11,938 nt of DNA from a virus (Duplodnaviria > Heunggongvirae > Uroviricota > Caudoviricetes), in the IMG/VR virus record IMGVR_UViG_2695420382_000004, one strand, 5' to 3'. Shown here piece after piece: positions 1 to 11,938 of this stretch; position 1 is the stretch's first letter; each line of letters starts with the position of its first letter. The position numbers were made by a program, and so were the translations under genes. Below the pieces are notes generated by a model that had not been told where the DNA came from, did no database searches, and was given only the letters and a program-made list of their open reading frames with translations.

Positions 1-2184
1 CTGAAAATAGCCCGGCGTCAGCTCAATCCGCGACAGCGCTGCCGGTGCGGCAATCCGGAACGATACCGACGCCGGATCGCCCTGCTGCCCCCACGCATTT
101 ACTGCCCGGACTGTCAGCCTGTAGTTCCCCAGCGCCAGTTGTGTGAAGCGGTAAGTGGTTTCCGTCGTCCGGGCCGTGCTGACCAGCCGCTCACTGCCGT
201 CATCCGCTGTTACGGTCAGACGGAGCAGGAAGCTCACGCCCTTCACCACCTTCGGCGTGTCCCAGCGCGCCAGCACCTGATATTCCCCGCTGTCTGCGGT
301 GACTTCGGCAGTCAGGTGCTGCACCGCTGGCGGCGTGACACCATTCACCGTGCCGCTCTGGTCGCCGTCAAAGTGCGCCCCGTTATCCACGATGGCTTCT
401 TTTTCCGGCACATGCTGCACGGCGGTGATGGCATACGTGCCGTCGTCGTTCTCACGGATACTCACGCAGCGGAACAATCGCTGGTGCAGCGTCGGCAGCT
501 TCAGCCCCCACACGCTGTATTCAGCAACACCGTCAGGAACACGGCTCACTTTTACCTTCACGCCGTCGGTGACGGACTGGACCTCCACGCTGACCGGATT
601 CCCCTGCCCGTCAACCAGGCTTATCAGCGTGGTGCCGGAGGATGGCAGCGTGATTTCACGGTCGAGCGTCAGCGTCCGGGTCTGGCTGTTCACCGCCAGC
701 ACGCGCCCGCCGGTGCGGATACCGGCATAGTCATCATCGCAGATTTCAATGACATCGCCCGGTACATGACGAAGCCCTTCAGCACCCACGCTGAAATCCA
801 CGGTCTGCGTCTCCAGCAGTTCCGTTTTAATCAGCCACAGCCCGGCGCGGTGTGCCTGCCCCCGGCTGGTACAGCCAAAGGCATCCATCTTCGTGACGTT
901 ACGACCGTAACGGACAATGGCCTGCGTATCCTCCACAAGCTCTGTCGCCGTCTCCCAGCCGTTATCCGGGTCAATCCAGTTCACCTCAACGGCATTATGG
1001 CGGTCTTTCAGGGCGCTGAAACTGTAGCGGAACGGCGCGCCATCATCCGGCATCACCACATTACTGCGGTTATAGGCCCACACCTTATCCGACTGTCGGT
1101 CCTGCACGAACGTCAGCGTCTGCCCGTTCCATACCGGCATACAGCGCATCGCCGAGCAGAAATCACTGAGCACATCCCACGCCTTGCGCTGTGTGGTCAG
1201 CCAGGCATTACAGGTGATGCGCGGCTCCGTGCTGCCAAAGCCGTCCGGCACCGACTGGTCACAGTACTGGCCGATGACATACAGCGCCCATTTATCCACA
1301 TCTGCCGCACCAAGACGTTTCCCCATGCCATAGCGCGGATGGGTCAGCATATCCCACAGACACCAGGCCATGTTGTTGCTGTATGCCGGTTTTAACGTTC
1401 CGTCCCAGATACCGCTGTATTGCCGCGTCTGCGGATTATAGTTCGACGGCACCTGCAGAATGCGCCCGCGAAGATGATAATTACGGCTCACCTGCTGGCT
1501 GCCGAACTGCTCCGAATCCACCTGTACGCCGACCAGTGCCGTGTTCGGGTAGCACTGTTTCACATCGATGATTTCGGTGTATGACGACCAGAGCGTTTTG
1601 TTCTGCAGCTGGTCTGTGGTGCTGTCCGGCGTCATTCTGCGCATCCGGATATTAAACGGGCGCGGCGGCAGGTTATCCACCACCACCGAGGCCAGATACT
1701 GCGAGGTGGTTTTGCCCTTAATGGTGATGTCTTTTTCCGTCACCCAGCCACCGTTACGCTGTATCTGAACCAGCAGGCGAACTTCAGACGGATTCCTGTC
1801 TCCCTTTGAGGTGGTTTCCACCAGTGCCTGTACACCGAAGGTAAAACGCAGTCGGTCAATGTTTGCCGACGTGATGGTCCGGGTGATCGGCGTGTCATAT
1901 TTCACTTCCGTACCCAGCACCGTCTCGGAGCCGGAGGATTCAAATCCCTCCGGCGGTGACTGCTCCTGCTCACCTGCCCGGAACACCACCGTGACGCCGG
2001 AGATGTTGGTATTCCCCTCACTGTCCAGCACCGGCGTACTGTTCAGCAGCACGCTTTTTAATCCATCCACCGGACCTTCAACCGGCCCTTCGCTGATGGC
2101 ATCGATCACACTCAGCAGCTGCGTGGACTTCAGGTTGTCCTTCGCTTCGCGCGGGGTATGCCCCTTACTGCTGCCTTTACCCAT
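1..2184 (-). CDS. J: Tail tip host-specificity protein J (central tail fibre), N-terminal 728 codons; 3' end lies beyond the window start
   Basis: ATG at 2184..2182 on minus strand; my translation reads MGKGSSKGHTPREAKDNLKSTQLLSVIDAISEGPVEGPVDG... and, at the window edge (60..1), ...FRIAAPAALSRIELTPGYFQ, colinear with lambda gpJ as recalled. Open to position 1, so absent from the ORF track. About 60 bp gap after I, as in lambda. Confidence 0.93.
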   Translation of the reverse strand, partial: MGKGSSKGHTPREAKDNLKSTQLLSVIDAISEGPVEGPVDGLKSVLLNSTPVLDSEGNTNISGVTVVFRAGEQEQSPPEGFESSGSETVLGTEVKYDTPITRTITSANIDRLRFTFGVQALVETTSKGDRNPSEVRLLVQIQRNGGWVTEKDITIKGKTTSQYLASVVVDNLPPRPFNIRMRRMTPDSTTDQLQNKTLWSSYTEIIDVKQCYPNTALVGVQVDSEQFGSQQVSRNYHLRGRILQVPSNYNPQTRQYSGIWDGTLKPAYSNNMAWCLWDMLTHPRYGMGKRLGAADVDKWALYVIGQYCDQSVPDGFGSTEPRITCNAWLTTQRKAWDVLSDFCSAMRCMPVWNGQTLTFVQDRQSDKVWAYNRSNVVMPDDGAPFRYSFSALKDRHNAVEVNWIDPDNGWETATELVEDTQAIVRYGRNVTKMDAFGCTSRGQAHRAGLWLIKTELLETQTVDFSVGAEGLRHVPGDVIEICDDDYAGIRTGGRVLAVNSQTRTLTLDREITLPSSGTTLISLVDGQGNPVSVEVQSVTDGVKVKVSRVPDGVAEYSVWGLKLPTLHQRLFRCVSIRENDDGTYAITAVQHVPEKEAIVDNGAHFDGDQSGTVNGVTPPAVQHLTAEVTADSGEYQVLARWDTPKVVKGVSFLLRLTVTADDGSERLVSTARTTETTYRFTQLALGNYRLTVRAVNAWGQQGDPASVSFRIAAPAALSRIELTPGYFQ

Positions 2185-2244
2185 TCGTCATGCTCCATAA
2201 ACGATAAAACCGCCCGGAGGCGATTTCACATAAAACATTTTGCA

Positions 2245-2916
2245 TCAGCGACCAATCACCACAACCTGACCACCGTCCCCTTCGTCTGCCGTGCTGATCT
2301 CCTGAGATACCACACGTGACCCCACGCGCATTTCACCATACAGAACAGGCATAACATTGCCCTGGGCAACCATGTTATCCAGTGAGGAGAAATAGGTGTT
2401 CTGCTTACCGTTATCCGTTGTCTGTGTGCGGGGAGTTCTGGCTTTCGGTGCCAGCATCTGAGCCACACCGCCGAGCACCATACTGGCACCGAGAGAAAAC
2501 AGAATGCCGGTCATACCACCGGCACCAATGGCAGCCCCCCATGCTGCAAGGGTGGCTCCGGCGGTAAAGAATGATCCGGCAATGGCGGCTGCTCCCAGGA
2601 CAATCTGGAATACACCACCTGACTTGGCCCCGGCGACTCTGGGAACAATATGAATCACAGCGCCGTCAGGCAGAGCCTCATGTAACTGCGCCGTTAATCC
2701 GGACGTGCTAACATCCTGCCCGGCAATACGCACCTGATACCAGCCGTCGCTCAGCTTCTGACGAAACGCAGGGAGCTGTGTGGCCATCGCCCGGATGGCT
2801 TCGGCACCCGTTTTCACACGAAGGTCGATGCGGCGGCCAAATCGTTGCAAATCCCCGTAAAGGCAGATGCGTGCCATGCCCGGTGACGCCAGAGGGAGTG
2901 TGTGCGTCGCTGCCAT
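2245..2916 (-). CDS. I: Tail assembly protein I (223 aa); C-terminal Gly/Ala-rich hydrophobic segment
   Basis: 223-aa ORF colinear with lambda gpI as recalled; its 5' end overlaps the 3' end of K by 103 nt in another frame, the same overlap length I recall for lambda K/I. Confidence 0.9.
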   Translation of the reverse strand: MAATHTLPLASPGMARICLYGDLQRFGRRIDLRVKTGAEAIRAMATQLPAFRQKLSDGWYQVRIAGQDVSTSGLTAQLHEALPDGAVIHIVPRVAGAKSGGVFQIVLGAAAIAGSFFTAGATLAAWGAAIGAGGMTGILFSLGASMVLGGVAQMLAPKARTPRTQTTDNGKQNTYFSSLDNMVAQGNVMPVLYGEMRVGSRVVSQEISTADEGDGGQVVVIGR

Positions 2917-3557
2917 TTGTCGGTATACCTCTCTCGTTTGCTCAGTTGTTCAGGAATATGGTGCAGCAGCTCGCCGTCACCACAGTAAATGGCGGCATGA
3001 TTCGGCACCGATGAACCAAAACAGCACAGCAGCACATCGCCCGGCTGCGCCGCTGACAACGGCACCTGATACAGCCCTGTGGCCTCCAGATTATCCAGAT
3101 AGAGATTCTGACCGTGACGCCACCAGTCATCCTCACGATGAAAATCCGGCATCTCAATCCCCGCCAGATGGTAAGCATCCCGGAACAGCGTGTAACAGTC
3201 CGTCACCCCGTGCTCAAAGCGCCGCCCGGTAAGATGTGGCACACAGCGGAACTTGTGAATCGCCCCCCGGCAGACCAGCCACCACGGCAAATCACTCTGC
3301 ACCTGCAGCCGCCGGTCGGCCTCACTCAGCCAGGGCAGACCACCGGGGTGGCTGTGGACCAGTGCCACAATCTCACCCTGCATCTCTGCCTGCAGCCAGT
3401 CTTCCGGCGACATACGGAAATACGCCTCCGGCTCACCGGAGATATTCACGCAGGGGAAATATCTTTCCCCCTCCGGCGTTCTTACCACGAAGCCGCACGA
3501 CTCCGCTGGAGCACATCGCCGGGCGTGCGCCAGAATCGCTGATTCTGTCTCTGTCAT
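2814..3557 (-). CDS. K: Tail assembly protein K, copy 1 (247-aa form; the 199-aa lambda annotation corresponds to internal Met49); JAMM/MPN+ motif plus NlpC/P60-like region
   Basis: Starts MTETESAILAHARRCAPAESCGFV..., colinear with lambda gpK as recalled. Codons 68-81 (3315..3356) read HSHPGGLPWLSEAD, fitting HxHx7Sx2D. Starts 5 nt after the L stop. Confidence 0.9.
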   Translation of the reverse strand: MTETESAILAHARRCAPAESCGFVVRTPEGERYFPCVNISGEPEAYFRMSPEDWLQAEMQGEIVALVHSHPGGLPWLSEADRRLQVQSDLPWWLVCRGAIHKFRCVPHLTGRRFEHGVTDCYTLFRDAYHLAGIEMPDFHREDDWWRHGQNLYLDNLEATGLYQVPLSAAQPGDVLLCCFGSSVPNHAAIYCGDGELLHHIPEQLSKRERYTDKWQRRTHSLWRHRAWHASAFTGICNDLAAASTFV

Positions 3558-3562
3558 GGGAT

Positions 3563-4261
3563 TTACTGCGAAAGTTTGTTAATGGAAAGGAAGCCGCCAA
3601 AGTTGCCGACGTTATTGCGAAACTTACAGCCACTCAGGCATTTGCTGCATTTATCCTTCGTGATGTCGGACGTTGGCTGGTCATATTCATCCGCGACCGC
3701 CGGACCGTGATAACCGCACTCATCGCCGCGATAGGTCCAGGTGCAGGTGTTGGCCAGCATGATACGTCCCGGAAAAACAGCGCCATCTGTTTCCGTCGGC
3801 GTGGACAGTACAAAAGAGGCACTCACCGCGCTCAGTTCGCTGCACTGCTCAATGCGCCAGCGGCTGATCACCTCCTGCTCCGGATCGGCGTCACTGTTTC
3901 CGTTGACGAAGTTCACCGCATCCAGAAAACGGGCGTAAACCTTACGCCGGACCACCGTTCCGCCGACCAGACTCTGTAGATCTTCCGCCATCCCGGTGAC
4001 CATACCGTACAGGTTAGAAACCATCAGCGTGGGGCGCGTACTGGTGCCTTTGCCATTCAGTTCAAAACCACTCCCCTGAATGGGATACGGCTGATACTGT
4101 CGCCCCTGCCAGGTGACCGGCTCACCTTTTTCGTTCTGCTCATTACAGAAAAAATAACGTTCTCCACCGACCTCTGTCAGATCGATTTCCCAGAGCACCA
4201 CGCTGGCCGACTGCTCCGCACGGGTGCATTCATTCAGTGTTTCCTGCCGGATATCCTGCAT
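3563..4261 (-). CDS. L: Minor tail protein L, copy 1 (232 aa), C-terminal Cys cluster
   Basis: 232-aa ORF starting MQDIRQETLNE..., length and sequence match lambda gpL as recalled; C-terminal cysteines (...RGDECGYHGP...DKCSKCLSGC...). Start ATG overlaps the M stop by 1 nt (TGATG). Confidence 0.92.
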   Translation of the reverse strand: MQDIRQETLNECTRAEQSASVVLWEIDLTEVGGERYFFCNEQNEKGEPVTWQGRQYQPYPIQGSGFELNGKGTSTRPTLMVSNLYGMVTGMAEDLQSLVGGTVVRRKVYARFLDAVNFVNGNSDADPEQEVISRWRIEQCSELSAVSASFVLSTPTETDGAVFPGRIMLANTCTWTYRGDECGYHGPAVADEYDQPTSDITKDKCSKCLSGCKFRNNVGNFGGFLSINKLSQ

Positions 4262-4590
4262 CAGTTCACCACCTGTTCAAACTCTGCGCTGAACTCAACA
4301 CGCAGCATACTGACCCGCGACGACCATTTTGCGCAGGTCACCTTTATCTGCCGCCACTCATAAGGCGGCGTCCACAGAAAGGCTTTCCAGCCCCCGTGCT
4401 CTTCCAGAAACGACTCCAGTACCATGGCCTCCTCACGGGGGACAGAAAGCGTCACGCTGTACGTTTTCAGGTTGGCATTCAGCCCGGCAGGCGCTCGCTG
4501 GGAATAGCCATCACCAAAGCGCACCTTTCTTACAGAAGGGGCCGAAGCCACATCCATACCGGGTTTCACTTTCCAGCGGAAGGTTTTCAT
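4261..4590 (-). CDS. M: Minor tail protein M, copy 1 (109 aa)
   Basis: 109-aa ORF MKTFRWKVKPGMDV..., same length as lambda gpM and colinear with it as recalled; ATGA start/stop overlap with the upstream H-type reading frame. Confidence 0.92.
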   Translation of the reverse strand: MKTFRWKVKPGMDVASAPSVRKVRFGDGYSQRAPAGLNANLKTYSVTLSVPREEAMVLESFLEEHGGWKAFLWTPPYEWRQIKVTCAKWSSRVSMLRVEFSAEFEQVVN

Positions 4591-4907
4591 CGTCCACCTC
4601 CGGAGAACAGGCCACCATCACGCATCTGTGTCTGAATTTCATCACGGGCACCCTTGCGGGCCATGTCATACACGGCCTTCATCATCTGTGGACCTGGCAG
4701 ACCATTCGTACCGTCGTTCTGAATCACCACGTGATTGTTCTGATTAAAATTAATGCCTTCAGCCCGCCGCATCTGCGCCGGACTTCCGGCACCGCCCACA
4801 TAACCACCTTCCGCATAGCCGCGCATCAGCCGGTAGAGATTCCCCACGCCAATCCGGCTGGTTGCCTCCTTCGTGAAGACAAATTCACCACGGTGAACAA
4901 TCCCCGC
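4587..4907 (-). pseudogene. H: Tape measure protein H, C-terminal fragment only (last 106 codons plus stop); no N-terminus or start
   Basis: Reads AGIVHRGEFVFTKEATSRIGVGNLYRLMRGYAEGGYVG...ARDEIQTQMRDGGLFSGGGR*, colinear with the lambda gpH C-terminus as recalled. Homology begins immediately beside the 'n' at 4909; upstream of it the frame reads K-gene antisense junk. Confidence 0.85.
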
Positions 4908-4908
4908 T

Positions 4909-4909
4909 N
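4909..4909. other. Single ambiguous base marking an abrupt junction between K-internal sequence (copy 2) and H-internal sequence; probable contig or scaffold join
   Basis: Literal 'n' in the sequence. K copy-2 homology (...CCFGASVP) stops on one side and H C-terminal homology starts on the other, within about 2 nt. Confidence 0.7.
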
Positions 4910-4911
4910 TT

Positions 4912-5466
4912 CGGTACCGAAGCACCAAAGCAGCACAGCAGAATATCGCCCGCCTGTGCAGAGGACAGGGGCACCCGGTAAAAGCCGGTGACCGCCATAT
5001 TGTCCAGGTAAAGGTTCTGACCGTTGCGCCACCAGTCATCCTCGCGATGAAAATCCGGCATTTCAGTCCCCGCCAGATGATAAGCATCCCGGAACAGCGT
5101 GTAACAGTCCGTCACCCCGTGCTCAAAGCGCCGTCCTGTCAGATGTGGCACACAGCGGAATTTGTGAATGTCACCCCGGCAGACCAACCACCAGGGCAGT
5201 GCGCTTTTTATCTGCAACCGCCGGTCAGCCTCGCTCAGCCAGGGCAGCCCACCGGGATGACTGTGGACCAGTGCCACAATCTCCCCCTGCATCTCTGCCC
5301 GCAGCCAGTCTTCCGGTGCGATACGAAAATACGCCTCCGGCTCTGCGGAAATATTCACACAAGGGATATACCGCTCCCCCTCCGGCGTGCTTATCACGAA
5401 GCCGCACGACTCCGCAGGCGCACACCGCCGGGCATGTGCCAGAATCGCTGATTCAGTCTGTGTCAT
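4912..5466 (-). pseudogene. K: Tail assembly protein K, copy 2, truncated after about 185 codons (lacks the C-terminal ~60 aa including the NlpC/P60-like His region)
   Basis: ATG at 5466..5464, MTQTESAILAHARRCAPAESCGFVISTPEGERY...HSHPGGLPWLSEAD...LLCCFGASVP, then the 'n'. The JAMM motif is retained; the tail corresponding to copy 1 ...NHAAIYCGDGELLHHIPEQ... is missing. Confidence 0.85.
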
Positions 5467-5476
5467 AAACCGGGAT

Positions 5477-6175
5477 TTACTGCGAAAGTTTATTAATGGA
5501 AAGGAAACCGCCAAAATTGCCGACATTCCTGCGCAGTTCACACCCGCGCATGCACTTGCTGCATCTGTCCTTACGGATATCCGTGGTGGGGTTGTCGAAC
5601 TCATCCGCCACCGCAGGACCGTTATACCCGCATTCATCTCCCCGGTAATCCCACATACAGGTGTTCGCCAGCATGATGCGACCGGGAAACAGCGCCCCGT
5701 CCGTCTCGGTCGGTGTAGCCAGCACAAACGAGGCCGTCATGGCTGTCAGCTGCGACATCTGCTCCACCACCCAGCGGTCACTCAGCTCCTGCTCCGGGTC
5801 CGCCTCCGGATTGCCCGCAACGAAATTCACCGCATCCAGAAAACGGGCATACACCCGGCGGCGGACCACCGTGGCCCCCACCAGACTCTGCAGGTCTTCC
5901 GCCATCCCGGTGACCAGACCGAACAGATTGGACACCGTCAGCGACGGTCTGGCACTGCTGCCCCGGCCGTTCATCTCAAAGCCGCTGCCGTCAATCGGGT
6001 ATGCCTCATACTTACGCCCCTGCCAGGTGACCGGCTCCCCTTTTTCATTCAGCTCATTACAGAAAAAATACCGCTCACCACCCTGTACCGTCAGGTCGAT
6101 TTCCCAGAGTACCACCCGCGGTGACTGCTCTGACTTAACCGACTCGTTCAGACTTTCTTCGCGAATATCCTGCAT
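5477..6175 (-). CDS. L: Minor tail protein L, copy 2 (232 aa), C-terminal Cys cluster
   Basis: 232-aa ORF MQDIREESLNESVKSEQSPRVVLWEIDLT..., colinear with copy 1 and lambda gpL but clearly divergent from copy 1; cysteines conserved (...RGDECGYNGP...DRCSKCMRGC...). Confidence 0.92.
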   Translation of the reverse strand: MQDIREESLNESVKSEQSPRVVLWEIDLTVQGGERYFFCNELNEKGEPVTWQGRKYEAYPIDGSGFEMNGRGSSARPSLTVSNLFGLVTGMAEDLQSLVGATVVRRRVYARFLDAVNFVAGNPEADPEQELSDRWVVEQMSQLTAMTASFVLATPTETDGALFPGRIMLANTCMWDYRGDECGYNGPAVADEFDNPTTDIRKDRCSKCMRGCELRRNVGNFGGFLSINKLSQ

Positions 6176-6504
6176 CAGTTCACCACCTGCTTAAACTCCG
6201 CGCTGAACTCAACGCGCAACATCCCGACCCGCGCAGACCACCCGGCACAGGTCACCTTTATCTGCCGGTATGCATAGGGTGGCTTCCACAAAAATGCCTT
6301 CCAGCCACCGTGCTCTGCCAGGAACGCTTCCAGATGCCGGGCCTCCTCCCGGGTCACGGAAAGCGTCACCCTGTATGTTTTCAGGTCAGCATTCAGCCCT
6401 GCCGCCATACGCTGTGAGTACCCGTCACCAAAACGCACTTCACGCACCGATGGCTGCGAGTTCACCTCCATATCCGGCTTCACTTTCCAGCGAAAGGTTT
6501 TCAT
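6175..6504 (-). CDS. M: Minor tail protein M, copy 2 (109 aa)
   Basis: 109-aa ORF MKTFRWKVKPDMEV...; about 21 of 109 residues differ from copy 1 by my hand count; ATGA overlap with the H stop. Confidence 0.92.
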   Translation of the reverse strand: MKTFRWKVKPDMEVNSQPSVREVRFGDGYSQRMAAGLNADLKTYRVTLSVTREEARHLEAFLAEHGGWKAFLWKPPYAYRQIKVTCAGWSARVGMLRVEFSAEFKQVVN

Positions 6505-9222
6505 CCACCGCTCCCTGATAACATACCGCCATCACGCAACTGCAGCCGGAGTTCATCCTGTGCCCCCTTGCGGGCCATCTCATACACCGCTTTCATCAGC
6601 TGCGGCCCTGCCCGCCCGTTGGGGCCGTCGTTCTGAATCACCACGTGATTGTTCTGATTAAAATTAATGCCTTCAGCCCGCCGCATCTGCGCCGGACTTC
6701 CGGCACCGCCCACATAACCACCTTCCGCNNNNNNNNNNNNNNNNNNNNNNNNNNNNNNNNNNNNNNNNNNNNNNNNNGTTCTGAATCACCACGTGATTGT
6801 TCTGATTAAAATTAATGCCTTCCGCCCGCCGCATCTGCGCCGGACTTCCGGCACCGCCGACATAACCACCTTCCGCATAGCCCCGCATCAGGCGGTACAG
6901 ATTGCCGACACCAATCCGGCTGGTCGCCTCCTTCGTGAAGACAAACTCCCCGCGATGAACAATCCCCGCAGGTTCATATTTACCCCCCGTCCCCGTAAAT
7001 CCCCCGGTCGCGAAATGGAAGTTCGCCGCCGCAGCCTGAATGGCCGTCCCCGTGGAGGCAGACGCACCACCACCGAAAGCACCGCCAATGGCGCTGCCGA
7101 TACTCCCGACTATCCCCACCATCGCCTGCTTCAGAAAAATCTCTGTCAGCATGGACAGCACAGAACGGGTGAAACCACGCCAGTTCTGTTCGCTGCCGAT
7201 CAGCATCGCTGCCATATTCTGTGCAATACCGTCAAAGGTCTGCGTGGCCGCGTTTTTAACCTGCGAAAAACTGTCCGTCGCACTTTCCGCCCACTCGCCC
7301 CAGCCGGACTTCATCCCGGCCATCCAGCTTCCACGAAGCTGCTCCTCCGCAGACCAGGTGTTCTTCAGTGCAGATGTGGCCTTCGCCAGCGCAGCCGGAT
7401 TATCACCGTACACCTCACGAAGGCGCTGCTCTTCCGACTCCCGCTGCGCCTGACGGTCGGTGAGTCCGCGGGCTTTTGCGCTGATTGCCGCCTGCTTCGC
7501 GCTCTGCTGCTGTTCAAACCGCGCCGCCTGCTGTGCCAGCTCATTCAGCCGTTTCTGGTGTTCAATCTTGTCGCCCAGCTCAGCCAGCTGGCGTTTGTAC
7601 TCCAGCGTTTCTTTCTCATGGGCCAGCAGGGATTTTTCCTGCTCAGATAACTGCCGTTTCGTGGCGGCCTCTTTCAGGACCACATACTGATTTTCCGCTT
7701 TCCATAAATCACGGCGCTGCTGGCTGATTTTTTCATTCGCACCGCTGTGCTTCTCCAGCGTCCTGAGCTCAGTTTCAAGCGCCAGCAGGGCTGCATGCGC
7801 CTGGTCTTCCTGGCGCTCACCGGCAGACACCTTCACACCGGACGGCTTTTTCTGCGTCGACTCATAATCCTTTTTTGCCGACGCCATCAGCGTGTTGTAA
7901 TCCGCCTGCAGGATTTTCCCGTCTTTCAGGGCCTTATTCAGCTCTTCCTGCCGGGCGGTATATTTCTCCAGTGGCGTCAGCAGGCGCTCATACGCCTTCT
8001 GCGCCTCTCCGGTATACTTCAGCTGTGACGACTCACGCTCAGCCCTGTCCCTTGCCGCCAGTTCACCGGCTTTTTCCATATCCGACTGCAGCGTTGCCGC
8101 TGCCAGACCCAGACGGGCATTTTCCCGGTCATCCCATGCGCCCTGAAGGTTGGCCCGGAAAGAGGAGGTTTTACCGCGGCGCTGGCTCCGACTCTGGTAC
8201 CACTGCCATTTTTTATCCGCCTCATCAAATGCCTTCTGCGCACTGGCGAGCATATCCGCTGAGGATTCCGGACGACCGATATCCAGAATGGCATCCCACA
8301 TCGATTTGAATGCCTTCCCTGTTTTATCCGCCCAGGTCTCCAGTGTTCCCATGTTTTCTTTCAGGCGACGGGTCTGCTCATCAAAGCCTTTCGTGGCGAT
8401 ATCGTTCGCCGCCTGCAATGCCCCGGCCTCGTCTCCGGAACGCTGCAGCTGTGCAACATACGCAATCTGCTCTGCCGTCACGTTACGGAACTGGCGCGCC
8501 ATCGCCATCAGTCCCGACGTCGGGTCAGTGGTCAGCTTCCCGAAGGCTTCAGCGACTTTATCCACCTCCACACCGGATGCAGACGCAAAACGCGCGACAC
8601 TCTGGTTGATGGCATCAAACTGTTCACCACCACGCACACCGGCATTCACCAGGGCTGCCAGTGACTCTCTCGCCTGGTTAAACGTCAGCCCTGCTGCCTG
8701 CCCGGCTCTTGAGAGAGTCAGCATACGATCGGCAGTCAGTCCGGACTGATTACCGGAAAGAACCAGGGTTTTATTAAACGCTGAAAGCGTGGAATCTCCC
8801 TGGTACCAGGCGTACACCAGTGCACCTGTCGCCACCGCCAGCGAGGTGACCCCGACCATCGGCAGGGTGATCGCATCGGCAAGCCCCCTGAACATGGGGA
8901 TCATCCCGCCGAAGGAGTCCTTCACCTGACCGCCCTGTTGCAGCAGGATCAGCCAGGGATTCTGACCACCGGCAAGCTGCGTGGCGATATCCGTAAACTG
9001 TGCGGGCAGGGTTCGCATGGCCGCTTTATACTGCCCGACGGAAATCCCGGCTTTTTGTGCAGCCAGCGCCTGGCGGCTCAGGCCCTGTTCAACAGCACTG
9101 GCGGTTTTTCTGGCGTCGGTATCCAGACCTGAAAAATGACGCCTTACCCGGCTCATCTGCTCATCGAAACGGACAGCATCCAGACTCAGGTCAATAACAA
9201 GATCACCAACCGGCTGGGACAT
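6501..9222 (-). CDS. H: Tail tape measure protein H, interrupted by an N-run and a duplicated 99-bp flank; about 857 aa once the duplication is collapsed
   Basis: Starts MSQPVGDLVIDLSLDAVRFDEQMSRVRRHFSG..., colinear with lambda gpH (853 aa) throughout as recalled. The 70-aa ORF 6501..6713 is its C-terminus (…DGPNG…MLSGSGG*). Arithmetic: 2722 nt minus 49 N minus 99 repeated nt = 2574 = 3 x 858, in frame. Confidence 0.9.
6630..6876. repeat. 99-bp direct repeat (6630..6728 and 6778..6876, 2 mismatches) flanking the N-run; a third copy lies at 4716..4814
   Basis: Read directly: gttctgaatcaccacgtgattgttctgattaaaattaatgccttc[a/c]gcccgccgcatctgcgccggacttccggcaccgcc[c/g]acataaccaccttccgc. The pre-gap copy is identical to 4716..4814; the post-gap copy differs at 2 positions. 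Confidence 0.9.
6729..6777. other. Assembly gap (49 N) inside the H coding sequence
   Basis: Run of n characters; the ORF-track translation shows X's followed by a frame change. Confidence 0.95.
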
Positions 9223-9667
9223 ATCTCACACCTCCCGGAATCCCCGCTGAAGCCATCATTAATGCGGCATCATCCACCATGACATCCGCCACATCCGCAG
9301 ACGATAAAATATCGCGCCCTCCGTCCCCACCGAACCGGACGCCTCCGGCAAGTCCTGCCGCTTTCTGCATCAGCATTTTGTCCTCATCCGGCCTCTCCAC
9401 CTGCTCTTCCTCATGCCGGGGGACAAGCAGACTGAAATCAGAGGGATGCATATCCGGATCGCAAAAAAACAGGCTGAGTACAGCGTACGTCAGCCCGGAA
9501 AAATGCATATCCAGCTGGGTATCCTGAAAATAATGCGTGCGGTAAAAACGGTGCCAGTCGGCATATTCGGTGGATGTCATCCCGGCAAGCATGGCGCGCC
9601 AGTCGGGTCTCCCCATCTCACGCGCCAGTCTGAGGGCAAAGTTCAGCTCGCCGTCGAAGACTTTCCC
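9203..9667 (-). CDS. T: T-frame portion of the gpG-T tail assembly chaperone fusion, reached by -1 frameshift from G; not an independent gene
   Basis: ORF in the -1 frame relative to G (9643-9203 = 440, 440 mod 3 = 2) running from the slippery site to a stop at 9203; genomic position between G and H as in lambda. The in-frame Met at 9616 is probably not used. Confidence 0.8.
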   Translation of the reverse strand, partial: GKVFDGELNFALRLAREMGRPDWRAMLAGMTSTEYADWHRFYRTHYFQDTQLDMHFSGLTYAVLSLFFCDPDMHPSDFSLLVPRHEEEQVERPDEDKMLMQKAAGLAGGVRFGGDGGRDILSSADVADVMVDDAALMMASAGIPGGVRYVPAGW

Positions 9668-10074
9668 GCAGAAAAATCATCATCAGTCAGCGTGTTATTT
9701 TTCGCCACTTCAGTAATATCAGTATCCGGACGAACAGCTTCGATCATCCCGGACAGGCACAACACCACGTCTTCCGCCCGGGCAATGGCATCGGCAGGCC
9801 AGGTGGTGAGCACTTCCTGCTCTATCTTCATCACGGCCTCATTCATTGACGGTGACTGCGTTTTCTGTGGATGGTTATGCCACAGGGACATCGCCACCAG
9901 AAACGCGCCGGTTCTGACGAGATCTTCCACGCTTACCTGCAGGTTGCCGCTGGATTCTGCCTGTTCTGCACGCCGTTTCAGGAGGGCAAGATGCTCGATA
10001 CGCTGCAGCGCAGACAATTCGGAAAGCGTGACAGACACACCGTTATATTCAAATTGTTCTGTTTTCAGAAACAT
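9643..10074 (-). CDS. G: Tail assembly chaperone G (143 aa)
   Basis: MFLKTEQFEYNGVSVTLSELSALQRIEHLALLKRRAEQAES..., colinear with lambda gpG as recalled; GGAGG Shine-Dalgarno 5-9 nt upstream of the ATG (minus-strand acGGAGGtaatacATG). Confidence 0.93.
   Translation of the reverse strand: MFLKTEQFEYNGVSVTLSELSALQRIEHLALLKRRAEQAESSGNLQVSVEDLVRTGAFLVAMSLWHNHPQKTQSPSMNEAVMKIEQEVLTTWPADAIARAEDVVLCLSGMIEAVRPDTDITEVAKNNTLTDDDFSAGKSSTAS
9661..9667 (-). other. Programmed -1 ribosomal frameshift slippery heptamer G GGA AAG (G frame) / GGG AAA G (T frame)
   Basis: Plus strand 9661..9667 is ctttccc, so minus strand is GGGAAAG. The G frame reads GCG GGA AAG (…SAGK…), 6 codons before the G stop; established lambda G-T mechanism. 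Confidence 0.85.
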
Positions 10075-10087
10075 GTATTACCTCCGT

Positions 10088-10840
10088 TTACCCTGCAGCG
10101 CCCGCTTCAGTAACGGTGACTTCAGCCACTGCGGCGAACTGACCATTTCCGCTCACCACAGGGATCTGCACCTTACCTGTCGCCACGCCGTTTACCGTAA
10201 TTGTCATATCTTTCACACTAATGGTGGCTTTCGACGGATCGGCGGAAACCGCTCTGAACGTCTTGTCGGTTGCACTTTCCGGCTCAAAAGAAACCGTCAG
10301 GGTGGTTGTTTTCCCTTTTGCCACCGTACCGGATGTCGGCGTCACCTTAATCGCACTGACCGGCGTAATTTTGCTGCGTTCTTCCGCTACAGAAGGTTTA
10401 CCCACGTTAGTGACTTTCACCGTGCGGGTGATCACTTCTTTCGCCGTCACGGCCTTACCGATACTGCTGACCCAGCCACGAAACACATCCACCGTGCCAT
10501 TCGGAAAACGGATTTTATAGGCCCGGACATCGCCGCTTTCAAACCAGCCTATAAGCCCTTTCTGGCCTTCCTCTCCCGGTTTCCAGGCCAGCGTAAAACT
10601 GGTATCACCTGCAGATTTCTGCCCCTGCCCGGTCGCGCTCCAGTCCGCGTCTTCATCATCCAGGTAGTTATCATCATAGGATTCAGCCGTCATCTCGCCC
10701 GGCGTCAGATCCTTCACCTTAGCCAGTCGCTGCCAGTCATCGTCTGACAACGGGTTTGCATAAGCATCAGCCTTGCCGTTGTAAACCCACAGAGTGGTAC
10801 CGGCACCTTTTACCGGCTCCAGGGGATTTGGTGTTGCCAT
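10088..10840 (-). CDS. V: Major tail tube protein V (250 aa) with C-terminal Ig-like region
   Basis: [42 protein letters not shown]..., colinear with lambda gpV as recalled; the C-terminal roughly 90 aa are Thr/Val/Ser-rich (…[12 protein letters not shown]…[22 protein letters not shown]…), typical of a Big_2-like domain. Confidence 0.93.
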
Positions 10841-10847
10841 ATCGTCC

Positions 10848-11243
10848 TCACATCTCGTATGTAATGGAATAAGTCAGATCCGCAGAGCTCCATAACGCCA
10901 TATCGTCATCACGACGATACTCATAGCCCTGCGTAACCATCGTGGTAATCAGTCCTGCCAGTGCAGGGATCGCAGTCATCGCCGGATAAATCCGGCTTTC
11001 CATCCACTGATCGAGCTCCGAATCAGGTACCTGTGCCGGTAAAAACACCTCAATATGCAGTGTGGCCCGCCAGGTATCTGCATCCAGCTCTTCACCGGTA
11101 TACTCTGCATCCGTCAGATAAACCGCGATCGCAGGAAAATCCTCTTCGTCAAAAACAACGGGGCGACCATCAAACAGCGTCGCCCCGTGTTCATGCTGCT
11201 CGAGTGCATCCAGCACTGCGGCACGAATGTCAGTGTGTTTCAT
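10848..11243 (-). CDS. U: Tail tube terminator protein U (131 aa)
   Basis: [44 protein letters not shown]...LTYSITYEM, same length as lambda gpU and colinear with it as recalled. Confidence 0.93.
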
Positions 11244-11815
11244 CGTTTTATCGCAATCCTCAGTTGTTGTTTCAGCGCGTATGCCAGTTCTTTAGGCAGG
11301 CGTTCACGCCGGATACGGTCAACATTCTCATCAAATGCCTGTTTCAGTGGGGCCGCCATCGGGATTTTCACCACCTGAATGGGAAGGCGATTACGCTTTT
11401 TCCTTCCCTTGTCGTCATTGCCCTCCTCATATCTGGCCTGGGGAAGACGTTGCATAACATGCCAGCGCCCATTATTTAATCGCTGGATAAATGCCCGCTG
11501 ATAACGATGCTGACCGGCTTTGAGTATGCTGTTCGGACGACGCCCCAGCATTCTGATCCCCAGCTTAATCACAGGGAGATCACCGCGGTTAACGATAATT
11601 CTGGCATTCGGATTTCTGACCGTCGCCCGTTTCAGTCTGGACCGTTCCTTTACCAGTTTCCGTCTCACCCTGGTTTCCCGGGCAACCTGTGACGAAGACT
11701 GATTAATCGCCGTTGTGGCCACGCGGTTAATGGTCATTGCAGAAGCAGCCGGAATGGCGTTTTTACGAACCCGGCTCAGATTGTCAATCGCCTGATCAAG
11801 CCCTTTTATCGCCAT
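11240..11815 (-). CDS. Z: Tail completion protein Z (191 aa)
   Basis: MAIKGLDQAIDNLSRVRKNAIPAASAMTINRVATTAINQSSSQVARETRVRRKLVKER...RIAIKR, colinear with lambda gpZ as recalled; ATGA overlap with the U start. Confidence 0.92.
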   Translation of the reverse strand: MAIKGLDQAIDNLSRVRKNAIPAASAMTINRVATTAINQSSSQVARETRVRRKLVKERSRLKRATVRNPNARIIVNRGDLPVIKLGIRMLGRRPNSILKAGQHRYQRAFIQRLNNGRWHVMQRLPQARYEEGNDDKGRKKRNRLPIQVVKIPMAAPLKQAFDENVDRIRRERLPKELAYALKQQLRIAIKR

Positions 11816-11829
11816 AATTCACCCTGCGT

Positions 11830-11938
11830 TTATCGTCGCCGGTTAACTGCGGGTGGTTGCCCACGGTTGAGCCAGAGATAACAGCTGCCCCCGTCATCCG
11901 GAGATGTCAGCGCCAGTGATATAAGACGGTAATTCGCC
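11830..11938 (-). CDS. FII: Head-tail joining protein FII, C-terminal 35 codons plus stop; 5' end beyond the window
   Basis: Hand translation of the minus strand gives ANYRLISLALTSPDDGGSCYLWLNRGQPPAVNRRR*, matching the lambda gpFII C-terminus (...SPDDGGSCHLWLGRGVPPAVNRRR) as recalled; 14-nt spacer before the Z ATG. Confidence 0.8.
   Translation of the reverse strand, partial: ANYRLISLALTSPDDGGSCYLWLNRGQPPAVNRRR

What the first reader, a model, noticed from the sequence alone, without database searches (positions are those of the whole stretch)
6630..6876. N-run inside the tape-measure gene flanked by a 99-bp direct repeat; collapsing it restores an in-frame H of about 857 aa
The 99 bp before the gap (6630..6728) and after it (6778..6876) are the same sequence with 2 mismatches, and both encode the same H segment (...GGAGSPAQMRRAEGINFNQNNHVVIQN). 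As written, H has a frame shift across the gap. Removing the 49 N and one repeat copy gives 2574 nt, exactly 858 codons, close to lambda gpH at 853 aa. This looks like two contig ends that overlap but were joined with a gap instead of merged. The 2 mismatches suggest the pre-gap piece (carrying M2-L2-K2) comes from a different prophage copy than the post-gap H body.
Basis: seen in the sequence. Interest (0 to 1): 0.45.

Follow-up and report, generated by a model that had tools for sequence, protein, structure and literature searches.

The report
Scaffold gap artefact in tape-measure gene
The N-run and the 99-base repeat around it are an assembly artefact in a public draft Shigella scaffold: two contig ends that overlap were joined with a gap, and merging them gives an ordinary 857-residue lambda-type tail tape-measure gene identical to the one in finished genomes.

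Summary
There are 49 N at 6729..6777. They are flanked by a 99-mer (6630..6728 and 6778..6876) whose copies differ at two synonymous positions. As written, the tape-measure gene H is frame-shifted. Merging the overlap gives 2574 nt, or 857 aa.

The window is a whole public record (GCA_001252355.1, CXCV01000128.1) built from three pieces:
- A: 1..4908
- B: 4910..6728
- C: 6778..11938

In four finished chromosomes, including Shigella sonnei 53G:
- B and C lie on one prophage and overlap by exactly 99 nt.
- B's only two mismatches are the two repeat SNPs.
- The called H is 857/857 identical to the merged window H.

Piece A (I-K1-L1-M1 plus an H tail) is 4907/4908 identical to a different, lambda-like prophage. 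That prophage lies about 531 kb away in one of the same chromosomes. The single N at 4909 is therefore a scaffold misjoin.

M2-L2-K2 does belong with the H body. Only B's last 54 nt carry alleles of the other prophage, and these start right after a 50-nt block that the two prophages share exactly.

This is not biology. Interest is low, apart from database hygiene.

The parts
1..4908 (-). Piece A: part of a lambda-like prophage. It holds the J N-terminal 728 aa (2184..1, open to the window edge), I1 2245..2916, K1 2814..3557, L1 3563..4261, M1 4261..4590 and the last 107 codons of a different H gene (4587..4908).
   Evidence: 4907/4908 identical to loci L017 and L018, where it continues into an 853-aa tape-measure gene unlike piece C. 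M1, L1, K1 and I1 are 97-98% identical in protein to lambda. Pfam families. J reading frame.
4716..4814 (.). Third copy of the 99-mer, inside the H tail of piece A. It carries alleles A and C.
   Evidence: 100% identical to 6630..6728. The same alleles occur in all finished relatives of piece A.
4909..4909 (.). Single N marking a scaffold misjoin between piece A (inside an H tail) and piece B (inside K2).
   Evidence: Homology of A to L003/L017 stops at 4908 and homology of B to L001/L025 starts at 4910. A query across the join (4650..5170) is covered at 80% or more in 0 of 5,426 complete E. coli genomes.
4910..6728 (-). Piece B: K2 (5' part only, 4910..5466), L2 5477..6175, M2 6175..6504 and the last 75 codons of H (6501..6728).
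   Evidence: 1817/1819 identical to L025, L027, L031 and L032; the mismatches are only at 6675 and 6711. Pfam Phage_min_tail and Phage_tail_L.
6630..6728 (.). Pre-gap copy of the 99-mer (end of piece B). Its last 54 nt (6675..6728) carry the two alleles of the other prophage.
   Evidence: The block 6625..6674 is identical in A and B (104 nt shared in all). The first deviation from the finished genomes, at 6675, comes immediately after that 50-nt block.
6729..6777 (.). 49-N scaffold gap. No real sequence is missing here; the true distance between the two pieces is -99 nt.
6778..6876 (.). Post-gap copy of the 99-mer (start of piece C), with the correct alleles C and G for this prophage.
   Evidence: 0 mismatches to L025-L032 and to the E. 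coli relatives L001 and L002.
6778..9222 (-). H (tail tape-measure) codons 1-815. Together with 6501..6629 this makes the complete 857-aa protein.
   Evidence: Pfam TMP_2 (5e-69) and Tape_meas_lam_C (6e-20) on the merged protein. 77% identity to lambda gpH over the full length. 857/857 identical to the H called in four finished chromosomes.
6778..11938 (-). Piece C: H body, T 9203..9616, G 9643..10074, V 10088..10840, U 10848..11243, Z 11240..11815, then the flank of an IS element.
   Evidence: 5159/5161 identical to L025, L027, L031 and L032 over its whole length. Pfam families.

Best explanation
The window is one small scaffold of a draft assembly (GCA_001252355.1, record CXCV01000128.1). 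The organism is almost certainly Shigella sonnei. A scaffolder chained three contigs from two different lambdoid prophages into it.

Pieces B and C are neighbouring parts of one prophage (K-L-M-H-T-G-V-U-Z). Their ends overlap by 99 nt. The overlap was not merged, and 49 N were written between them. This created the apparent direct repeat and the frame shift in H.

The two mismatches are not real variation at this locus. They are the alleles of the paralogous H gene of the second prophage (piece A). They entered B's last 54 nt when the contig end was extended through a 50-nt block that is identical in both prophages. This step is inferred, not shown. The mismatches, or a wrong gap-size estimate, would then have stopped the overlap from being accepted as a closure (also inferred).

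Piece A was attached at the single N at 4909, probably because read pairs from the similar tail genes linked it to the same neighbourhood.

The real gene is an ordinary, uninterrupted 857-aa lambda-type tape-measure gene.
For: 1; the artefactual ORFs of the window occur in exactly one public record, CXCV01000128.1. It is 11,938 nt long, the same length as the window.
2; in four finished chromosomes (HE616528.1, which is S. sonnei 53G according to PMC5447701, plus CP032523.1, CP061367.1 and CP044191.1), B matches 1817/1819 and C matches 5159/5161. They map colinearly with exactly 99 nt of overlap. B's only mismatches are 6675 and 6711. The H called there is 2574 nt and 857/857 identical to the merged window H.
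3. A matches 4907/4908 a different prophage with an 853-aa H, about 531 kb away in the same chromosome, CP032523.1.
4; all eight finished relatives of A carry A and C at the two sites, and all relatives of B and C carry C and G.
5; the 99-mer occurs once per locus in 28 of the related prophage loci fetched (none was detected in 3, including lambda), but three times in the window.
6; the A|B junction is absent from 5,426 complete E. coli genomes.
7; the 50 nt before the first wrong allele (6625..6674) are identical in the two prophages.
8., literature: the Wellcome Trust Sanger Institute assembly pipeline used for 299 S. sonnei isolates runs Velvet, SSPACE and GapFiller, and calls these greedy tools that can make false joins. 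GapFiller extends contig ends by k-mer overlap. It accepts a closure only if the inserted size agrees with the estimated gap, and it leaves gaps open mainly in repeated areas.
Against: No reads of this isolate could be examined, so the link to a particular assembler and the origin of the two wrong alleles are inferred. I did not verify that this record was made with the Sanger pipeline; the tool did not even show the record's organism name. B's start at 4910 and A's end at 4908 do not sit at any repeat boundary that I could identify. Rare natural E. coli prophages do combine a B-type H tail with the A and C alleles, so such a sequence is not impossible in nature.
Confidence: 0.93

Rival explanations
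1. Piece B is real as written and belongs to a third, recombinant prophage copy, with a B-type K-L-M-H tail joined to an A-type H body. Under this reading B and C are not neighbours, and C's own M-L-K lies elsewhere in the assembly.
For: Two complete E. coli genomes (TUM13773 and 20AR0479) carry B's last 169 nt at 100%, including the A and C alleles, and continue into an A/L003-like H. Lambdoid tail modules are highly mosaic: the exact L2 protein is found next to H genes of 853, 857, 868 and 1080 aa.
Against: Those recombinants are only 97.3-97.4% identical to B overall. The four finished chromosomes are 100% identical to B apart from the two terminal sites and place it directly next to C. C begins at exactly the position homologous to the start of B's terminal 99 nt. 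That is expected for two ends meeting at one locus, but would be a coincidence for unrelated loci. Both deviating bases lie in the last 54 nt of a contig end, right after a 50-nt block shared with the co-resident paralogue.
Confidence: 0.05
2. The tape-measure gene of this isolate carries a real internal tandem duplication of about 99 nt or more, with unsequenced DNA between the copies.
For: Only the sequence as written.
Against: As written the gene is frame-shifted. The copies are separated only by N. None of the related loci fetched has two copies. The merged gene is 857/857 identical to that of finished genomes that differ from the window by 2 nt in 5 kb.
Confidence: 0.01
3. The two mismatches reflect a mixed culture or within-sample heterogeneity at a single locus: two H alleles, each captured by one contig end.
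For: None directly. It would also give two versions of one 99-mer.
Against: The alternative alleles are exactly those of the paralogous H in piece A of the same scaffold, which is 100% identical over 104 nt. Cross-talk between paralogues explains them without assuming a second strain.
Confidence: 0.01

Closest known systems
Tape-measure gene of the defective lambdoid prophage in finished Shigella sonnei chromosomes (for example 53G, HE616528.1, about 2.08-2.10 Mb; CP032523.1, about 4.28-4.30 Mb)
   Same: After merging the 99-nt overlap, the H protein is 857/857 identical. The gene order Z-U-V-G-T-H-M-L-K is the same, and the DNA differs at 2 of 5161 nt (piece C) and 2 of 1819 nt (piece B).
   Different: The window has the 49-N gap, the duplicated 99-mer with two paralogue-derived bases, and a foreign 4.9-kb piece attached at 4909.
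Bacteriophage lambda gpH (NP_040595.1, 853 aa) with the M, L, K, I tail-tip genes
   Same: Same Pfam families (TMP_2 and Tape_meas_lam_C), the same position between G/T and M, and 77% protein identity over the full length for the merged H. Piece A's M1, L1, K1 and I1 are 97-98% identical to lambda.
   Different: The merged H is 4 residues longer. The B/C prophage is a diverged relative (M2 80%, L2 77% identical to lambda).
Unclosed-gap and false-join artefacts of greedy scaffolding and gap filling (SSPACE and GapFiller, as used in the Sanger prokaryote assembly pipeline; PMC5320598, PMC3446322)
   Same: Contigs from repeated prophage DNA were chained by N. Contig ends extend into the gap from both sides. 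The closure was not accepted, and the region is a multi-copy repeat. The papers themselves describe false joins and gaps left open in repeats.
   Different: I did not verify that this record was produced with those tools. The single-N convention for negative gaps is from my own memory of SSPACE, not from a tool result.

Membership tests
Lambda-type tail tape-measure protein (gpH family) | Matches to Pfam TMP_2 (PF06791) and Tape_meas_lam_C (PF09718) above the gathering score | tested here: met
   Merged H: TMP_2 232.5 bits (cut-off 30.2) and Tape_meas_lam_C 71.5 bits (cut-off 23).
Lambda-type tail tape-measure protein (gpH family) | Full-length similarity to lambda gpH and comparable length | tested here: met
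   77.3% identity over residues 1-856 versus 1-852 of lambda gpH; 857 versus 853 aa.
Lambda-type tail tape-measure protein (gpH family) | Gene lies between the G/G-T chaperone genes and the M-L-K tail-tip genes | tested here: met
   G, T, M2 and L2 were identified by Pfam on either side. A GGGAAAG slip site in frame gives an open G-T fusion.
Lambda-type tail tape-measure protein (gpH family) | Protein length sets tail length | not testable with these tools
   Needs virions. In finished S. sonnei genomes this prophage appears defective (head genes replaced by IS elements, J fragmented).
Assembly artefact: overlapping contig ends joined by a gap | The two repeat copies are separated only by N | tested here: met
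   6729..6777 are all N.
Assembly artefact: overlapping contig ends joined by a gap | Both flanks map to one continuous single-copy site in finished genomes of near-identical strains, overlapping by the repeat length | tested here: met
   99-nt overlap in L025, L027, L031 and L032 at 99.9% or more. The same overlap is seen in the E. coli relatives L001, L002 and L009.
Assembly artefact: overlapping contig ends joined by a gap | Merging restores the reading frame and the reference protein | tested here: met
   2574 nt; 857/857 identical to the reference H.
Assembly artefact: overlapping contig ends joined by a gap | Reads span the merged junction, and none support two copies | not testable with these tools
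   No read data are available here.
Genuine tandem duplication within a tape-measure gene | Two copies in uninterrupted sequence that keep the reading frame, or are seen in related genomes | tested here: not met
   The frame is broken (148 mod 3 = 1). There is one copy per locus in every related locus examined.

The most novel reading that the evidence does not exclude
The most novel reading not excluded is this. The roughly 104-nt block near the 3' end of H is identical between the two co-resident prophages (4711..4814 and 6625..6728). In this isolate it might have served as a real site of recombination or gene conversion between their tape-measure genes. Piece B would then be a true recombinant allele rather than an assembly error. 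Natural E. coli prophages with a crossover at this same block exist (L004, L005).
Probability: 0.05. Interest if true: 0.2.

Novelty: not a real feature. Interest (0 to 1): 0.05.

Why it matters
The matter is one of data quality only. The public record carries an apparent tandem M-L-K duplication and a broken tape-measure gene. Gene callers turn these into four artefactual proteins:
- an 849-aa H containing X's
- a 70-aa H tail
- a 193-aa K2 fragment fused to an out-of-frame H tail
- an 86-aa H tail

Such products can contaminate pangenome, prophage-typing or protein-cluster analyses. They could also be misread as a tail-length variant. The corrected reading is an ordinary gene of a known defective prophage.

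Tried and rejected
1. I searched the artificial joins B+C and A+C against 5,426 complete E. coli genomes. Both exist at 98-99% because lambdoid tail modules are mosaic, so this did not discriminate.

2. I searched the pieces separately in the E. coli genomes. The best matches were only 99.2%, 99.6% and 97.2%, because the source is not E. coli under NCBI naming. This suggested B+C contiguity but left the two SNPs open.

3. An exact scan of the species-representative genome collection for B's end found nothing.

4. I considered that 99 nt might be a de Bruijn k-mer overlap. I rejected this as an explanation on its own. The overlap has two mismatches, and the piece boundaries lie 5-6 nt away from the nearest positions where the prophages differ.

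5. I considered that A might be the true neighbour of C. This is rejected. A's 192-nt overlap with C is only 93% identical, and in finished genomes A continues into a different 853-aa H.

6. I could not explain why piece B starts at 4910, inside K2. No long block shared with piece A lies there. A further prophage copy elsewhere in the genome is possible but untested.

Full report
**Observation**

The window has an N-run at 6729..6777 (49 N) and a single N at 4909. The 99 nt before the run (6630..6728) and after it (6778..6876) are the same sequence except at two positions: 6675 A versus 6823 C, and 6711 C versus 6859 G. Both differences are synonymous.

On the minus strand, the tape-measure ORF reads in frame from 9222 to 6778 (815 codons). 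The duplicated 99 nt plus 49 N add 148 nt, which is one more than a multiple of three. As written, the ORF therefore ends in a wrong-frame stop at 6673, and the true C-terminus is left as a 70-aa ORF at 6501..6713. Deleting the N-run and one copy gives 2574 nt, or 857 aa plus stop.

Two further facts change the picture. A third copy of the 99-mer lies at 4716..4814 and is 100% identical to the pre-gap copy. A second set of K-L-M genes sits 1.9 kb away at 76-84% identity.

**Anatomy**

The two N positions divide the window into three pieces.
- Piece A (1..4908, minus strand) holds J (N-terminal 728 aa, open to the window edge), I1, K1, L1, M1 and the last 107 codons of an H gene.
- Piece B (4910..6728) holds the 5' part of K2, then L2, M2 and the last 75 codons of an H gene.
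- Piece C (6778..11938) holds H codons 1-815, then T, G, V, U and Z.

Pfam confirms the gene identities. The merged H matches TMP_2 and Tape_meas_lam_C. It is 77% identical to lambda gpH (853 aa) over its full length. Piece A's M1, L1, K1 and I1 are 97-98% identical to lambda, whereas M2 and L2 are about 77-80% identical. The window therefore contains parts of two different lambdoid tail modules.

**First round of comparison (E. coli)**

The best complete-genome relatives of B (99.6%) and of C (99.2%) are the same prophage type. In them, B and C map colinearly with exactly 99 nt of overlap, and the tape-measure gene is 2574 nt. B is identical to that reference over 6162..6674, and C is identical over 6778..7044. 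B's two terminal sites differ, and both carry the alleles of piece A.

This round was not decisive for two reasons:
- Both artificial joins, B+C and A+C, exist in E. coli at 98-99%.
- Two E. coli genomes carry a natural recombinant with B's tail and the A-type alleles.

A query across the A|B join at 4909 found no complete genome that covers 80% or more of it.

**Decisive round**

I looked up exact proteins of the window in public assemblies.

Source record. The artefactual ORFs of the window are the K2 fragment fused across the N at 4909 (193 aa) and the 70-aa H tail. They occur in exactly one record, GCA_001252355.1 CXCV01000128.1. It is 11,938 nt long, so the window is that whole scaffold.

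Piece A. The K1 protein led to finished chromosomes in which piece A matches 4907/4908. There it continues into an 853-aa H that is only about 78-82% identical to piece C.

Pieces B and C. The V protein led to four finished chromosomes: HE616528.1, CP032523.1, CP061367.1 and CP044191.1. In all four:
- C matches 5159/5161 over its entire length.
- B matches 1817/1819.
- B's only mismatches are 6675 and 6711.
- B and C overlap by exactly 99 nt.
- The called tape-measure protein is 857/857 identical to the merged window H.

HE616528.1 is Shigella sonnei 53G (PMC5447701). CP032523.1 contains both prophages about 531 kb apart. All finished relatives of A carry A and C at the two sites. All relatives of B and C carry C and G.

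**Interpretation**

Shown:
- B and C are adjacent parts of one prophage, and no sequence is missing between them.
- The 99-mer is single-copy at this locus.
- The real H is an intact 857-aa gene.
- Piece A belongs to another prophage, and the join at 4909 is false.
- The two mismatches are the alleles of the paralogous H of that other prophage.

Inferred, on how the artefact arose:
- The 50 nt before the first wrong base (6625..6674) are identical in both prophages. An extension by k-mers shorter than that block cannot tell the two apart and can switch to the paralogue.
- The accession series is shared with other S. sonnei drafts listed in PMC5447701. This suggests the Sanger pipeline, which runs Velvet, SSPACE and GapFiller and is described by its authors as greedy and prone to false joins.
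- GapFiller extends contig ends from both sides. It accepts a closure only when an overlap is found and the size agrees with the estimated gap. It leaves gaps open mainly in repeats.
- An overestimated gap, two mismatches in the overlap, or both, would leave exactly what is seen.

I could not verify which software made this record.

**Rivals**

- A real third, recombinant prophage. This is possible in principle. However, it requires C to start by coincidence at the base homologous to the start of B's terminal 99 nt. It also requires B to differ from finished genomes only in the last 54 nt of a contig end. I give it about 5%.
- A real tandem duplication in H. This is contradicted by the broken frame, by the N-only spacer, and by single-copy status in every related locus. 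I give it about 1%.
- Mixed alleles in the sample. This is unnecessary, because the alternative alleles are those of the co-resident paralogue.

**Verdict**

The finding is a correct observation of an assembly artefact in a public draft record. Its inference that M2-L2-K2 comes from another prophage is wrong: the foreign piece is K1-L1-M1 on the other side of the N at 4909. There is no new biology here. The value is limited to flagging a misassembled record and the spurious proteins derived from it.

Noticed in passing
window 4909 and 4587..5466: A single N joins an H tail of one prophage to the middle of K2 of another. Gene calls on the public record include a chimeric 193-aa product (K2 residues, an X, then 7 out-of-frame residues) and an 86-aa H-tail fragment (4587..4847). 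The apparent tandem M-L-K duplication is therefore a scaffold misjoin.
   Followed up: yes
window 4711..4814 and 6625..6728; loci L004 and L005 around 7066..7169: A block of about 104 nt near the 3' end of H is identical between the two prophages. It sits where natural E. coli prophages (TUM13773, 20AR0479) switch from a B-type H tail to an A/L003-type H body, so it looks like a recurrent mosaic boundary in lambdoid tape-measure genes.
   Followed up: partly
window 9661..9667 (minus strand), G 9643..10074 and T 9203..9616: G GGA AAG lies in the zero frame five codons before the stop of G. A -1 slip there gives an uninterrupted G-T fusion protein, as in lambda. The heptamer count itself is not above chance (2 found, 1.9 expected); it is the position and frame that fit.
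   Followed up: partly
window 11905..11938; L025 and L027 6663..7835: The last 34 nt of the window diverge from the E. coli relatives but match the finished S. sonnei chromosomes. There, IS transposase genes (rve / IS21-type) replace the head genes next to Z, and J downstream is split into fragments. The prophage carrying this H is a defective remnant, and the scaffold ends at an IS element.
   Followed up: partly
window 139..1395 (+): A 418-aa plus-strand ORF with no Pfam match is called as a gene in the public record. It lies antisense to the open J reading frame (2184..1, 728 aa without a stop), so it is most likely a spurious call on a truncated J.
   Followed up: partly
window 7045..7081: There are 14 mismatches within 37 nt against the closest E. 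coli relatives (L001, L002), in the glycine-rich part of H. The surrounding DNA is nearly identical. This is a small mosaic patch that the finished S. sonnei genomes share with the window.
   Followed up: no
window 4910 (start of piece B) and 4908 (end of piece A): Neither contig end coincides with a long block shared between the two prophages in the window. Why the contigs break here is unexplained; a further related prophage elsewhere in the genome is a possibility.
   Followed up: no
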